Shown here one piece after another: positions 30,001 through 36,000 of a DNA stretch of 64,000 nucleotides. The stretch covers positions 1,728,001-1,792,000 of the forward strand of contig CAVQXP010000004.1 of assembly GCA_963717935.1 (NCBI GenBank), in the 5' to 3' direction. Every line of letters starts with the position of its first letter. Positions within the stretch are counted from its first letter, which is position 1. The position numbers are program-made. This DNA is from Candidatus Eiseniibacteriota bacterium (GTDB taxonomy: Bacteria > Eisenbacteria > RBG-16-71-46).

Positions 30001-33000
30001 CTGCCCGAGCTGCACCGGTTGGTCGCGGCGCTCCCGCCGGGGCCGCGACCGTGAGTGGGGCAGCCGTGGCGGTGGACGCGCTCGCGGTCGCGGCCCTGGG
30101 ACTCGAGCATCTCTACACGGGCCGGCGGGGGCTCCCCGCGCTGAGCTTCGAGTTGCGGGCGCCGGGCGTGGTCGCCGTCAGCGGGCCGAACGGTTCGGGC
30201 AAGAGCACGCTGCTGCGCCTGCTGGCGGGGCTGCTGCCGCCGACCGCGGGCCGCTCGCTCGTGACCCTCGCGGGGCGCGAGGTGCCGCCGCCGGAGCGGC
30301 GCACGGTGCTGGGGTTCGCCTCGCCCGAACTGGCGTTCTACGAGGAGCTCTCCTGCGTCGAGAACCTGGCCTTCGCCGCCGAGGCCCGCGGTGCGCGCGA
30401 CCGCGCGACGCTGGCCTCGGCGGCGCTGGAGCGCGTGGGCCTGGGTGCGCGCGCGCGCGACCGGGTGGCCGCACTGTCCTCGGGGATGACACAGCGCCTG
30501 CGGCTCGCCTTCGCCCTGCTCCTGCGGCCGCCGCTGCTGCTGCTGGACGAGCCGGGCAGCCACCTCGACGAGGAGGGCCGCACACTGGTCGAGCGCATCG
30601 TGGACGAGGAGGCCCGCACCGGGCTCGTCGTCATCGCCACCAACGAATCACGGGAGTGGGGACTTGCCGCCCAACGGATCGAACTCCGCGGCCGCGGTCT
30701 GGGCCATCCTGCGTAAGGAGTGCCGCAGCGAGTGGCGCACGCGCTACGGGCTGAATGCGGCGCTGCTCTTCGCGGTGGCCACGCTCACCGGCGTCTCGTT
30801 CGCCGTGGGGCGGCTGCCCGACCGCACCGACCTGCTGGCCGCGCTGCTCTGGGTGGTGCTGCTGTTCGCGGCGCTGGCCTCGCTGGCGCACGCCTTCGTG
30901 CGCGAGGTGGAGGGGCACACGCTCACGCTCCTGCGCCTGGTGGCCTCGCCGACCGCCATCGCGCTGGGCAAGCTGCTCTTCAATCTGCTCTTCCTCGTCG
31001 TGCTCGAGGCCGTGACCGTGCCGTTGTTCCTGGTCCTCATGGGCGGGCCGCCGGTGCGCTGGGGGCCGTTCCTGCTGATCCTCGGGCTCGGGAGCCTGGC
31101 GCTGGCCGCCACCACCACGCTGGTGGGGGCGGTGGTGTCGCAGGCCCGCGGGCGCGGGGCGCTCTTCGCCGCGGTCTCGCTGCCGCTGTTGATGGTCGTG
31201 CTGGCCGCGGGCGTGAGCGGGCTGCGGGCGCAGTGGGACGGCGATCCCGTCACCACCGAAGCGCGGCTCCTGGCCGCCTACGCCGCCGTCGTGCTGGGGG
31301 CGAGCGTGCTGCTCTACGATCACCTGTGGGAGGATTGACGTGATCCTGAGGCTGCTGCTGTTCCTGTGGATCGCGGCCGCGATGCTGGGCGGGTTCCTGT
31401 GGGCGCCGCTGGTCGCCGCGCTGGGGGACAGCACGCGGGTGCTCTACTTCCACATCCCCAGCGCCTGGATCACCGTGCTCGCGCTCGGTTGGTCCATGCT
31501 GCACAGCGTCCGGTACCTGCGCACCCGCCGCCTGGGCCATGACGACCAGGCGGCCGCCGCGGCCGGGCTGGGCGTGCTGTTCTGCATCGTGGCGGCCGTG
31601 AGCGGCTCGCTGTGGGCCAAGGCCCAGTGGGGCTCCTACTGGAACTGGGACCCGCGCGAGACCACGATCTTCTTCCTGCTGCTCATCTATGGGGCGTATC
31701 TCGCGCTGCGCAGCGCCATCGAAGGGGAGGAGAAGCGGGCCCGGCTGGCCGCAGTCTACTCGGTCATCGCATTCGTCACCGTGCCCTTCCTCATCTTCGT
31801 GGTGCCGCGCCTGTACGCCACGCTCCATCCGTCGCCCATCCTGCCGCAGCAGGGCGAGGGGCGTGCGATGGACCCGAGGATCCGGATCTGCTTCTTCGCC
31901 ATGCTGGCGGGCTTCACAGTCCTGTTCTTCTGGATCCTTTCGCTCAAGGTGCGCCTCGTACGATTCGAGCGGCGCGCCCAGTCGGAGTCCGCGGCGCGGT
32001 CCTGAGCCCCGCGGCGAAGGTGGACGGGGGCGCGAGCCCCCGAGCAGACCCTCAGCGGGGCCCGGCCCCGGGGAGTGTGAACCGTGAACGGCAACCTGGT
32101 GGTACTCGGCGTGGCGCTGCTGGTGTGGGGACTGCTGTTCCTCTACCTGCTCCGGCTGGAGCGCCGCATCCGCGACCTGGAGAAGCGATGAACGTGAAGA
32201 TCATCCTGGCCCTGGCGCTGGTGGCGGTCGGCGTTGCCGTCGGGGTGACGAGCTTCAAGAAGTCGGTGACGCCCTACCTCAGTTTCGCCGAGGCCCGACG
32301 GAGCGCCGGGCTCGTGCAGGTGAACGGCGAGATCGCCGACAGGAACTACGTCCTCAAGCCGCTGGAGCAGTACCTGGAGTTCAACCTGCGGGACCAGAAG
32401 GGCGAGGTGATGCCGGTCGTCTACCGTGGCGTCATCCCCGGCAACTTCGACCAGGCCACCATGGTGGTGGCCATCGGGCGCTACCGGGCGGGCCGTTTCC
32501 AGGCGGAGCAGCTGTTGCTGAAGTGTCCCTCCAAGTACCAGGCCGAAGCTGACAGGCAGAAAGCGGCCCGAACTTGAATCCTGGACAGATCCTCGCCTGG
32601 CTCGCCTTCCTGGCTTCGCTCACGGCCGGACTCGCGTGGCTCGCCGCCGTGGCGGGAGGCCGGCCGGCCGCCGGGCGCGTCGCCCGCGTGACCTTCCGCA
32701 TCCAGTGGCTCGCGCTGGTCGCCGCCGCCGCGTTCCTCTGGCTCATCCTGTTCCGCCACGACTTCCGCTACCAGTACGTGGCCTCCTACTCCTCGATCGC
32801 GATGCCGGCGCATTTCGTGTTCGCCGCCTTCTGGGGGGGGCAGGAGGGGACGTTCCTGCTCTGGGCGCTGCTCACGGCGACGCTGGGCCTCGTCCTGATG
32901 CGGCTGCGGCACCCGCTGACCGAGGCGGCGATGGCCTTCCTGAACCTGCCGCTCGTCATGCTGGGGCTGGTGAGCGTGATGCGCGGGCCGTTCCTGAGGT

Positions 33001-36000
33001 TCCCGCCGGGGCGGGCGCCCCTGGACGGACAGGGGCTGAACCCGCTGCTCCAGGACCCGTGGATGACCATCCATCCGCCGGTGCTGTTCATCGGCATCGC
33101 GTCGCTCGCCGTGCCCTTCGCCATCGCCATGGCCGCGATGGTGAAGCGCGACTGGGACGGCTGGGTGAAGCTGGCCCTGCCGTGGGTGGTGTTCTCGACG
33201 GCGGTGCTGGCCACGGGCTTCATCATGGGCGGGGTGTGGGCGTACCGCGTGCTGGGTTGGGGCGGTTACTGGGGCTGGGACCCGGTCGAGAACGGCTCGC
33301 TCATCCCCTGGCTCGCGAACCTGGCGCTGCTGCACGGGCTGCTGGTGCAGCGCGTGACCGGCAGCCTGCGCCGGACGAACCTGTTCCTCGCCGTGACCGC
33401 CTTCGTCCTGGTCCTCTACGCCTCGTTCCTGACCCGCAGCGGCGTGCTGGCCGATTTCTCCGTGCACTCCTTCGCCAACCTCGGGCTCACCAGCTTCCTG
33501 CTCACCTTCCTGTTCGTGATCATCATCGCAGGCTACGGGTTGCTCGCCTTCCGCCTGCGCGGGATCCCGAGATCGCTGCAGCAGGTCGGCGGCTTCTCCC
33601 GCGAGTCCATGATGTGGCTCGGGCAGCTGGTGTTGCTGCTCATGTGCCTGCTGATCGCGGTCGGGATGAGCGCTCCGCTCCTCACCGGCCTGTTCGGGCC
33701 GCCCGCGAACGTGCAGACCTCGTACTACAACCTGGTGAACGCCCCGCTCGCGATCATCATGGGCCTGCTGCTGGGGCTCGGTCCGCTCATGCGCTGGCGC
33801 CGCCAGGATTCGCGGGCGCTCCTGCGCGCGGCGCTGCCGGCGCTGGTGCTGGCGGTGGCGTTCACCCTGGTCATCGTGGTGCGCGGGGTGCGGGAGGCCA
33901 TGCCCGCGGGCGTCATCTTCGCCGCGGCCTTCGCGCTGGCGGCCAACGCCGTGGTCGCGGTGCGCGGCTTCCGCGTCGGCTGGCGGCACGGGGCCGCGGC
34001 CCTCGGGCACCTGGGGGTGGCGATGCTGCTGATCGGCGTCGTGGCCTCGAGCGGCTACGGCGTCGCCGCGCAGGCGCAGCTGCCGCAGGGCGAGGAGCGC
34101 CAGGCGCTGGGCTACTCGCTCACGTACCAGGGGTTCGTGAAGGAACCCGACGGCAAGGGCCACGTCCGGATCGCCGTGAGCTCGCGGGAGGGCCGCTTCG
34201 AGGCCACGCCGGCGCTCTACTGGAGTGAGTTCAACCAGGGTTACATGAAGAAGCCGCACGTCGAGCGCTACCTGACGCACGACGTCTACATCTCGCCGCT
34301 CGAGATGGTGGACGAAGAGGACGCCGAGGGGGGCGCTGCCGGCGACGCCGTGTGGCTGGCGCCCGGCGAGACCCGGGAGGTGGGTTCGGCGAGCTACACC
34401 TTCGAGGGCTTCGACCCGCAGATGGGGCAGGTCGTGCGCCTCGCTGCGCGGCTGCGGGTCGAGCTGAACGGCCGCACGGTGCCTGCGCGGCCCGTGCTGG
34501 AGATCAACACCGCGACCGGCTCGCGCAACAGCATCCCGGCCTATCTGCCGGGCGGCTCCGCGGTCGAGATCGCGGACGCCGAGCCGGGCAGCGGGCGAGT
34601 GGCCCTGGTGCTGCCCGGGGCGGCGCAGCCCGGCAGGAGCAGCGTGCTGGCGGTGGAGGTGAGCACGAAACCGTTCATCAACCTCGTCTGGCTGGGCGCG
34701 CTCCTGATGCTCGGGAGCACGTTCCTGATCACGTTCCGCCGCGCGCGGGAGTTCGGGGATGTCAGTTCGGCAGGGGGGGCGAAGACGGCGTAGGCGGGCG
34801 GGGTGGATGGTGCAGGCGAAGGGTGGGGGCCCGGGCTCGATGCAGAGCCCGGGCCCTTTTCTTCCTTGGCAACTGCACGGATGTGCAGTATCTTCAGCCC
34901 GGTGTCCAGACCCGCGAGGTTCGAATCGCTCAGCGACCCCGTGGACGTGCTCACGGTGTTCGTGGCCGGCAAGGTGAAGCCCCTGCGCTTCCGTTGGCAG
35001 GGCCGGGTCATCCGCGTGCGCAAGGTGAGTGGAGAGTGGACCCGCCGCGAAGGCCAGGCCCTGCTGCGTTATTACGCGGTGGAGGGTGCTGCGGCCGGGA
35101 CCTACGAGCTCTGCTTCGACGCCCGGGGCCCGGGTTGGATCCTCTCGCGGGCCTGGCCCGCAGGGGCATGAAAAAGGAGGGAGGGCTGCCGCGGCTCCGT
35201 GGCGGCCCCGGATGGCCATGTGGATCCTGCTCGCGGACATGGACGCCTTCTTCGCCTCGGTCGAGCAACTCGACCGTCCCCACCTGAGGGGCCGGCCCGT
35301 CGTCGTCTGCGGCGACCCGGGACGGCGTGGCGTGGTGACCGCGGCCTCGTACGAGGCGCGGCCCTCGGGTGTGCGGGCCGGGATGAGCCTGGCCGAGGCG
35401 CGCCGTCTCTGCCCGGGGGCCGAGTACGTCGAGGGCCATCCGGAGCGCTACGTCGCGCTCTCGCTCCAACTGCTCGACCTGTATCTCTCGTTCACGCCGG
35501 ACGTGGAGCCCTTCAGCGTGGACGAGGCGTTCCTCGGCCTCGATCCGAAGGAGGCGACGCTCGATCAGGCCGAGGCCGTGGCGCGGCGCGTGCAGCATGC
35601 GGTGGACGAGCGTTTCCGGCTCGGGGTCTCGGTCGGCGTGGGCCCGAACAAGCTGGTGGCCAAGATGGCGGCGGGGCTCGGAAAGCCGCGCGGCCTCACG
35701 GCTCTGGACGAGGAAGGCTTCCGCCGGGCCTTCTGGCCGCTCGAAGTGCAGGAGTTGTGGGGCGTGGGACCGAAGCTCGCCGGGCGCATGCGGTCGCTCG
35801 GGATCATGACCGTCGGCGATCTCGCCCGCGCCCCCGTCCCGTCCCTCAAGGCTGCCTTCGGTGTGGTGGGCCCGTCGCTGCGCGAGGCCGCCTGGGGAAG
35901 GGACGACACGCCGCTGGTGCCCTACCATCAAGGCGCGGACCCGAAGTCCATGGGGCACGAGGTCACCCTGTCGGCGGACTCGGCCGATCCCGCCTTCCTC

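What a model noticed while it worked through the whole genome (the two positions that open the first line are those of the whole stretch)
30066..34793. Haem auxotroph with 84 c-type haem motifs
The genome encodes Ccm maturation genes (this place), nine multihaem cytochromes with 84 CxxCH motifs, cytochrome bd and b-type complexes, yet no step of tetrapyrrole synthesis (no HemA, HemB, HemC, ferrochelatase or CbiX-type chelatase). It must import finished haem; most of its family is in the same state.
Evidence so far: 84 CxxCH motifs in 9 proteins. No haem-synthesis rows in the annotation. HemB in 8 of 46 family genomes of >=90% completeness, 0 of 4 in this genus; HemC 0 of 8 genus genomes; ferrochelatase, GlutR and CbiX 0 of 5; each family rang in 8-11 of 14 control genomes. 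10.1101/2021.01.11.426183 (passages read) does not name Eisenbacteria in its main text; no paper held both haem auxotrophy and multihaem cytochromes.
(Added by a program. Inside this text positions count along the whole contig: contig position 1,728,001 is position 1 of the stretch shown here. "Call 12" and the like, gene names such as g00115 and contig names such as C1 are that model's own, and its searches are not shown. The text may have been shortened before it was handed on; [...] marks where a part breaks off. The agent that wrote the report below was given it as the finding of a first reader that could run no searches.)

Follow-up and report, generated by a model that had tools for sequence, protein, structure and literature searches.

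The report
Cytochrome-rich bacteria that borrow their haem
Most genomes of this uncultured bacterial family lack the genes for making haem but keep large haem-loaded electron-transfer proteins and outer-membrane haem-type receptors, so they probably live on haem made by neighbours, which suggests adding haem to culture them.

Summary
Confirmed, and extended. The window holds ccmABCDEF with a cysteine-type CcmE. Nine proteins carry 84 CxxCH motifs (about 1.5 expected by chance). No haem-synthesis step was found in six frames. It is a family trait: HemB and ferrochelatase occur in the same 11 of 61 genomes, CcmF in 61 of 61, and two single-contig genomes are negative.

New here: candidate importers. 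Two related TonB-dependent receptors occur in 48 of 50 HemB-negative genomes. Behind one conserved two-component pair lies either the hem operon or one of these receptors in 38 of 45 informative loci. One receptor type has both ChuA haem histidines and precedes hmuTUV-hemS-like genes in two outside genomes. This genome's own type lacks both, so it is a weaker candidate. A full-length HmuU-type permease is found in only 4 of 61 genomes, so the inner-membrane step is open.

The kind is known. H. influenzae is a haem auxotroph with ccm, nap and nrf, and a 2024 supplementary table scores four genomes of an Eisenbacteria order as pathway-deficient. Scale, family-wide pattern and uptake anatomy were not found in print. 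Growth dependence is untested.

The parts
30066..30716 (+). ccmA, ABC ATPase of the haem-handling complex
   Evidence: PF00005; best NCBIfam TIGR01189 ccmA, 115.7 bits, below cut-off 131.6, on the first 204 codons; frame end
30664..31338 (+). ccmB
   Evidence: PF03379, E 4e-18
31340..32005 (+). ccmC, with tryptophan-rich haem-handling motif
   Evidence: PF01578, E 7.5e-25; best NCBIfam TIGR01191 ccmC
32084..32191 (+). probable ccmD (35 aa, one hydrophobic helix and a basic tail)
   Evidence: frame read; position between ccmC and ccmE; no family match; identity inferred
32188..32577 (+). ccmE of the cysteine (CxxxY) type
   Evidence: PF03100; CPSKY in 38 of 38 CcmE proteins recovered from 41 family loci
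32574..34793 (+). ccmF, haem lyase
   Evidence: PF01578 and PF16327; homologue in 61 of 61 family genomes

Best explanation
The organism and most of its family cannot make haem and import it finished. Step 1 (shown): the hem operon is missing as a block; Ccm and the cytochrome genes are intact. Step 2 (inferred): a TonB-dependent receptor takes haem b across the outer membrane. In most relatives this is the two-histidine 'c3' receptor. In G000 the candidate is P0001 (C4:1026561-1028768), powered by TonB-ExbBD at C4:2041330-2043810. Step 3 (unresolved): haem reaches the inner membrane, most simply through an Opp/Dpp-type peptide transporter (C4:178392-181700), or by partition from the periplasm. 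Step 4 (established chemistry): CcmABCD loads it on the cysteine-type CcmE and CcmF ligates it to CxxCH sites of a porin-cytochrome cluster and a Rieske/cytochrome b/multihaem cluster. One conserved two-component pair probably controls haem supply, driving synthesis in some members and uptake in others (inferred from gene order only). Odds: true loss with import 0.85; P0001 as the importer of G000 about 0.65.
For: HemB and HemH in the same 11 of 61 genomes, none discordant, although on different contigs in 6 of the 11; CcmF 61 of 61; COX1 family 58 of 61. Negative genomes include two on one contig (G109, G112) and several rated 98-100% complete. The sister genus carries the operon directly behind a sensor kinase and LuxR regulator; in G000 that site lies inside a 2.14 Mb contig with no hem gene. 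Of 47 such loci, 6 have the hem operon next to or within about 2 kb, 28 the c3 receptor, 4 the P0001 type, 7 neither, 2 end at the contig edge. c3 has the plug His in 27 of 28 and the loop His after FRAP in 26 of 28; both align with the His of the ChuA/ShuA-type chain 9dhe. In G008 and G010 the c3 operon continues with binding protein, permease, haem-ABC ATPase (292.5 bits, cut-off 261, in G008) and HemS. P0001 is the best TIGR01785 match of G000's eight receptor loci (270.5 bits), is homologous to c3 (E 2e-66), abuts the porin-cytochrome cluster in G000 and G109, a second ccmF in G107, G117 and G119, and ChaN in G073. One or both receptors in 48 of 50 HemB-negative and 7 of 11 HemB-positive genomes (Fisher p 0.008, kin not independent).
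Against: P0001 lacks both canonical histidines (Asn at the plug column in 27 of 29; no His in the loop) and keeps only a His three residues on (28 of 29). Neither receptor reaches the TIGR01785 cut-off of 316.85, and the top solved-structure hit by sequence for both is the colicin I receptor. 7 of 11 haem-making relatives also have a receptor, so it may serve iron uptake too. G000 has no FecCD permease, HmuT, HemS or ChaN. G000 is 93% complete, has many frameshifts and lacks COX1, which 58 of 60 relatives hold, so it may miss real genes. No growth or uptake data exist, and transcription was not shown.
Confidence: 0.85

Rival explanations
1. Haem-optional lifestyle: the cells ferment without haem and assemble cytochromes only when haem is around, as lactic acid bacteria do. 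The pathway is lost but growth does not depend on haem.
For: Compatible with all the genomic data; the 2021 survey notes that some predicted auxotrophs may replicate with little haem. G000 lacks COX1.
Against: Ccm is kept in 61 of 61 and COX1-family oxidases in 58 of 61 genomes; G109 adds a second ccmF, haem O and haem A synthases and a cytochrome of about 42 motifs. That is a large standing investment for an optional trait.
Confidence: 0.25
2. Assembly or binning artefact: the hem operon was dropped from incomplete bins.
For: G000 is 93% complete in 5 contigs; six positive genomes carry hem genes on short contigs; close pairs differ (G091/G097, G116/G117).
Against: CcmF is found in all 61; no genome has only one of HemB and HemH; single-contig genomes are negative; the syntenic site is intact and empty in four genus genomes. 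It may explain one or two negatives, not 50.
Confidence: 0.04
3. An unknown or unrecognisable route makes haem, or a precursor porphyrin is imported and metallated by an unknown chelatase.
For: A URO-D-family protein is conserved in 5 of 5 negative genomes tested; the 2021 survey raises unknown pathways as possible.
Against: That protein lacks the MRQAGR motif of HemE and matches methylcobamide methyltransferases best. HemH, CbiX, CbiK, HemQ and AhbD are absent. Relatives use the ordinary pathway, and haem-type receptors occupy its place.
Confidence: 0.06
4. The receptors carry another cargo (B12, siderophore, or glycan, given the lectin-like and propeller-like neighbours), and haem enters by an unrecognised route.
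For: The two secreted proteins behind c3 fold like a BNR/sialidase-type propeller and a CBM66-like lectin, with at most one invariant His. P0001 fails the two-His test.
Against: c3 has both His and FRAP, and sits with hmuTUV-like genes, hemS and a Fur-family gene in G008 and G010. This rival is weak for c3 and serious for P0001.
Confidence: 0.2

Closest known systems
Haemophilus influenzae
   Same: Named as a haem auxotroph (PMC6449446, passages) and holds ccmABCDEFGH, nap, nrf and torYZ (PMC1805755, Table 1): System I plus c-type cytochromes without haem synthesis.
   Different: Host-associated; histidine-type Ccm with CcmGH; its cytochromes have up to five haems and most strains keep ferrochelatase (recalled). 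Here: free-living, no chelatase found, cysteine-type CcmE, 18-19-haem proteins and a porin-cytochrome cluster.
Free-living haem auxotrophs: acI Actinobacteria and marine-sediment isolates
   Same: Whole pathway lost in environmental lineages, subclade by subclade; Dpp-like systems proposed for uptake (10.1101/2021.01.11.426183, abstract and two of three parts of the main text; PMC11139205, passages). Table S9 of the latter scores four genomes of order RBG-16-71-46 at 0.3-0.4 (threshold 0.5) and four of the neighbouring order at 0.8-1.
   Different: Growth dependence was shown there, not here. Neither main text names Eisenbacteria (for the 2024 paper; the parts read for the 2021 paper) or treats large multihaem cytochromes or these receptors.
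HemR/ShuA/ChuA receptors with HmuTUV and HemS
   Same: c3 has the two His and FRAP/NPNL-like motifs that mark these receptors (PMC6449446); the full operon exists in G008 and G010.
   Different: In the family the operon has two secreted proteins of unknown role and no HmuTUV or HemS behind it (28 loci); it follows a two-component pair; P0001 has another ligand set.
System I* cytochrome c maturation (Desulfovibrio, Methanosarcina)
   Same: CcmE with CxxxY; no ccmG or ccmH in the locus (PMC3884852, passages).
   Different: Those organisms make their own haem (Methanosarcinales: PMC8351635, section 11; Desulfovibrio recalled).
MtrCAB/DmsEF porin-cytochrome conduits
   Same: Decahaem DmsE-like gene, 519-aa probable barrel and a lipoprotein cytochrome in one row.
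   Different: The lipoprotein has six motifs, not ten; the barrel has no Pfam or NCBIfam match.

Membership tests
Haem auxotroph | No common trunk to uroporphyrinogen III (HemA/L, B, C, D) | tested here: met
   ALA synthase not searched, but without HemB and HemC it could not serve
Haem auxotroph | No terminal route (HemH, HemQ, AhbABCD, CbiX/CbiK) | tested here: met
Haem auxotroph | Intact haem-requiring proteins | tested here: met
   nine cytochromes, bd oxidase, cytochrome b, Ccm
Haem auxotroph | Growth or respiration depends on added haem | not testable with these tools
   needs a culture
System I* Ccm | CcmE with CxxxY | tested here: met
   CPSKY in 38 of 38
System I* Ccm | No CcmG or CcmH in the genome | tested here: inconclusive
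   none in the locus; no genome-wide search made
HemR/ShuA/ChuA haem receptor (P0001, this genome) | Plug His and loop His between FRAP and NPNL | tested here: not met
   Asn at the plug column, His three residues later, no loop His
HemR/ShuA/ChuA haem receptor (P0001, this genome) | TIGR01785 cut-off 316.85 | tested here: not met
   270.5 bits, though it is the best family hit
HemR/ShuA/ChuA haem receptor (c3, relatives) | Plug His and loop His between FRAP and NPNL | tested here: met
   27 of 28 and 26 of 28; aligned to 9dhe
HemR/ShuA/ChuA haem receptor (c3, relatives) | TIGR01785 cut-off 316.85 | tested here: not met
   201.5 bits for G066, best family hit
Hmu/Hem uptake system | HmuTUV-type ABC importer | tested here: not met
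   none in G000; full-length FecCD in 4 of 61; present beside c3 in G008 and G010
Hmu/Hem uptake system | Haem transport shown | not testable with these tools
   needs complementation or binding assay
MtrCAB conduit | Periplasmic decahaem plus MtrB-family barrel | tested here: inconclusive
   10 motifs, TIGR03508 165 bits (cut-off 192); barrel without family match; Atlas neighbours include a cluster with PF11854 on 55% of members, recognition score below its threshold
MtrCAB conduit | Outer decahaem MtrC/OmcA | tested here: not met
   the lipoprotein has six motifs

The most novel reading that the evidence does not exclude
Imported haem never passes through the cytoplasm. The receptor delivers it to the periplasm, it partitions into the outer leaflet of the inner membrane, and CcmC or CcmF picks it up there. 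The family would then be a natural test of the open question whether CcmC takes haem from the cytoplasm or from the outer leaflet (PMC9616876, passages). It fits 44 of 50 HemB-negative genomes that have a receptor but no full-length HmuU-type permease, the lack of hmuTUV-hemS behind c3 inside the family, and the P0001-type receptor lying beside or in frame with a second ccmF in three genomes. The two secreted proteins behind c3 would be a new device for stripping haem from dead neighbours, and one two-component system would switch between making and taking haem. Opp/Dpp import is the ordinary alternative and was not excluded.
Probability: 0.2. Interest if true: 0.85.

Novelty: new variant of a known kind. 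Interest (0 to 1): 0.6.

Why it matters
It names a cheap supplement (hemin) for culturing an uncultured group, and shows that a heavy c-type cytochrome load, including probable electron conduits, can be run on scavenged haem outside a host. Counting multihaem cytochromes in bins would overstate what such cells can do alone, because they depend on haem-making neighbours. The receptors, the two accessory proteins and the shared regulator can be tested now in laboratory E. coli, and the missing inner-membrane importer bears on how System I is fed.

Tried and rejected
CbiMQO at window 21222-23674 as a haem importer: Pfam gives cobalt/nickel ECF parts; rejected. The single TP-methylase as CobA/CysG: it is RsmI. 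The HemN-like hit: HemW-type chaperone between lepB and hrcA, frameshifted. The URO-D hit as HemE: active-site motif missing. Weak FecCD hits in 25 genomes as HmuU: 16 of 17 weak-hit loci fetched match the Zn/Mn ABC-3 permease. The 1502-aa CcmF-receptor frame in G119 as a true fusion: an internal Met and signal-like stretch suggest two genes in one frame. ChaN as the general periplasmic carrier: 11 of 61 genomes, not G000. c2 and c4 as His-type haemophores: folds and conservation do not support it. Repeated loss as the only history: the hem tree does not follow the Ccm tree (FastTree, no topology test, 41 of 61 genomes in the Ccm tree). Transcription: RNA-run contigs cover parts of the receptor and porin-cytochrome stretch at under 95% identity for the most part, and contigs cannot show transcription; runs with small word shares were not used for habitat. 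CydDC, KatG, P450 and DyP: not found by crude motif scans and three exporters checked; too weak to claim absence. The journal version of the 2021 survey is not held and its bioRxiv supplement could not be seen; it may list this phylum. Earlier scan notes: nothing bearing on this.
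Full report
Observation. The flagged stretch is a cytochrome c maturation operon: ccmA, B, C, E and F by Pfam, with a small CcmD-like frame between C and E. CcmE carries CPSKY, the cysteine type known from Desulfovibrio (PMC3884852, passages); all 38 CcmE proteins recovered from 41 family loci share it. The genome (3.02 Mb, 5 contigs, 93% complete) has 84 CxxCH motifs in nine proteins, against about 1.5 expected by chance. Five of them (19, 18, 13, 9 and 3 motifs) cluster with a Rieske protein and cytochrome b at C4:597-609 kb; a decahaem, a probable barrel and a hexahaem lipoprotein form a row at C4:1028.9-1032.5 kb. Cytochrome bd is present; COX1 is not.

Absence of synthesis. 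Family models found no HemB, HemC, HemH, CbiX, CbiK, HemQ or AhbD in G000, while the same searches rang in 5 to 12 of 14 control genomes. Because G000 has many frameshifts, I also searched all six frames with relatives' proteins and with unfiltered profiles built from them. Only paralogues came back: HemW-like, an aminotransferase, RsmI, weak radical-SAM hits and a URO-D-family protein lacking the HemE motif.

Not an artefact. Among 61 family genomes of at least 85% completeness, HemB and HemH occur in the same 11 and in no other, although they lie on different contigs in 6 of those 11. CcmF occurs in 61 of 61. The two sister families of the order have HemB in 9 of 9 (one of these, G059, is unpublished; 8 of 8 without it). 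In the sister genus the operon hemA-C-D-B-L-E-N-Y-H follows a sensor kinase and LuxR regulator; in G000 and three congeners the same pair is followed by a cupin gene inside a contig. Two other families of the phylum are also HemB-poor (2 of 14, 1 of 5) but mostly lack CcmF (1 of 14, 0 of 5); System II was not tested there.

History. Ten of the 11 family hem operons form one clade (support 1.0); that of G091 falls elsewhere, on short contigs of a bin with 5% contamination. Positive genomes are scattered over a Ccm tree of 41 genomes, and the two trees disagree in places. Repeated loss and exchange inside the family both fit; I did not test between them.

The importer. G000 has eight TonB-receptor loci. 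The best match to the haem-receptor family TIGR01785 is P0001, tail to tail with the porin-cytochrome row. Orthologues occur in 31 of 61 genomes. Following the two-component pair across the family gave a second, related receptor, c3 (33 of 61). I examined 47 of the 52 kinase loci (G121 later; four not fetched): hem operon at 6, c3 at 28, P0001 type at 4, neither at 7, contig end at 2. c3 has both histidines that mark HemR/ShuA-type receptors (PMC6449446, passages). Outside the family c3 was found in 2 of 92 genomes (only seven candidates scored per genome); in both it is followed by its two accessory genes, then binding protein, permease, haem-ABC ATPase and HemS, and one of the two, G008, lacks HemB. 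That makes c3 a haem receptor with good odds. P0001 is homologous and takes the same slot in four genomes, but lacks both canonical histidines, so its role is likely rather than shown. Together the two cover 48 of 50 HemB-negative genomes; the misses are G086 and G102. They also occur in 7 of 11 HemB-positive genomes, which weakens the link.

The open step. G000 has TonB-ExbBD and Opp/Dpp-type systems but no HmuTUV, HemS or ChaN. A full-length FecCD permease exists in 4 of 61 genomes. Either peptide transporters carry haem inward, as proposed for acI, or haem is used from the periplasmic side; whether CcmC takes haem from the outer leaflet is stated as open in PMC9616876 (passages) and PMC11442138 (passages). 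The two secreted proteins behind c3 model as a propeller (pLDDT 72) and a lectin-like sandwich (pLDDT 85) with glycan-enzyme and CBM66 fold neighbours; their role is unexplained.

Habitat. Eight runs hold 0.20-0.24 of the ccm words, seven labelled sediment metagenome. Two of them, laid on the receptor and porin-cytochrome stretch, cover 29 and 30 of 30 bins with contigs of relatives. This points to sediment-dwelling relatives, not to the source of G000.

What is known. Haem auxotrophy in free-living bacteria is established (10.1101/2021.01.11.426183; PMC11139205). Auxotrophy with System I and c-type cytochromes is documented for H. influenzae. Table S9 of PMC11139205 scores four genomes of order RBG-16-71-46 at 0.3-0.4, without comment in the main text; that order shares its name with an NCBI Eisenbacteria taxon. 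Ten library searches gave no paper that treats haem auxotrophy in Eisenbacteria, these receptors, or the make-or-take slot. PMC11495043, PMC13645880, PMC8351635 and 10.64898/2026.05.27.727921 were checked by passages or term search and do not. The library lacks most subscription journals, and the supplement of the 2021 survey was not seen.

Verdict. Real, family-wide, and a new variant of a known kind. Interest 0.6.

Noticed in passing
window 21222-23674: CbiM, CbiQ and CbiO-type cobalt/nickel ECF genes; CbiM and CbiQ read as one ORF, probably through a frameshift. A second CbiM set lies at C4:2109.8-2112.1 kb.
   Followed up: partly
window 26265-30054: Cysteine desulfurase-like gene, pdxS, pdxT-like gene and a DHH phosphoesterase run into ccmA; the DHH gene is beside ccm in 34 of 41 family loci.
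   Followed up: partly
window 34803-37352: Small unknown ORF, a DinB-like frame and a DUF72 gene follow ccmF.
   Followed up: no
L026:19662-20000 and L027:1-2820 (G109): A cytochrome with about 42 CxxCH motifs in a cluster with 9- and 6-motif proteins, a probable barrel and a second ccmF, in a single-contig genome without HemB or HemH; the cluster recurs in at least eight family genomes.
   Followed up: partly
L071:8150-12655 (G119): Second ccmF and the P0001-type receptor lie in one open frame of 1502 codons.
   Followed up: partly
L105:5010-5960 (G000 C4:1295006-1295959): URO-D-family protein with HxC and C-terminal Cys, conserved in 5 of 5 negative genomes; nearest to methylcobamide methyltransferases; role unknown.
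   Followed up: partly
L037:7144-8322 (G000 C4:1196907-1198324): Four-motif c554-like domain fused to a UshA-like (seleno)protein domain; an upstream piece ending in PCG lies in another frame.
   Followed up: no
L109:14549-15998 (G000 C4 about 2074.5-2076 kb): Small genes that look like bacterial microcompartment shell proteins (by eye, no family scan).
   Followed up: no
L079:11676-12947 (G073): ChaN-PDZ protein divergent from the P0001-type receptor; ChaN is in 9 of 11 genomes of genus g3.
   Followed up: partly
L080 (G114) and L072 (G117): The P0001-type receptor sits beside a nitrous oxide reductase cluster.
   Followed up: no
families f7 and f15: Two more HemB-poor families of the phylum, mostly without CcmF; three f15 genomes have TIGR01785-like receptors.
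   Followed up: no
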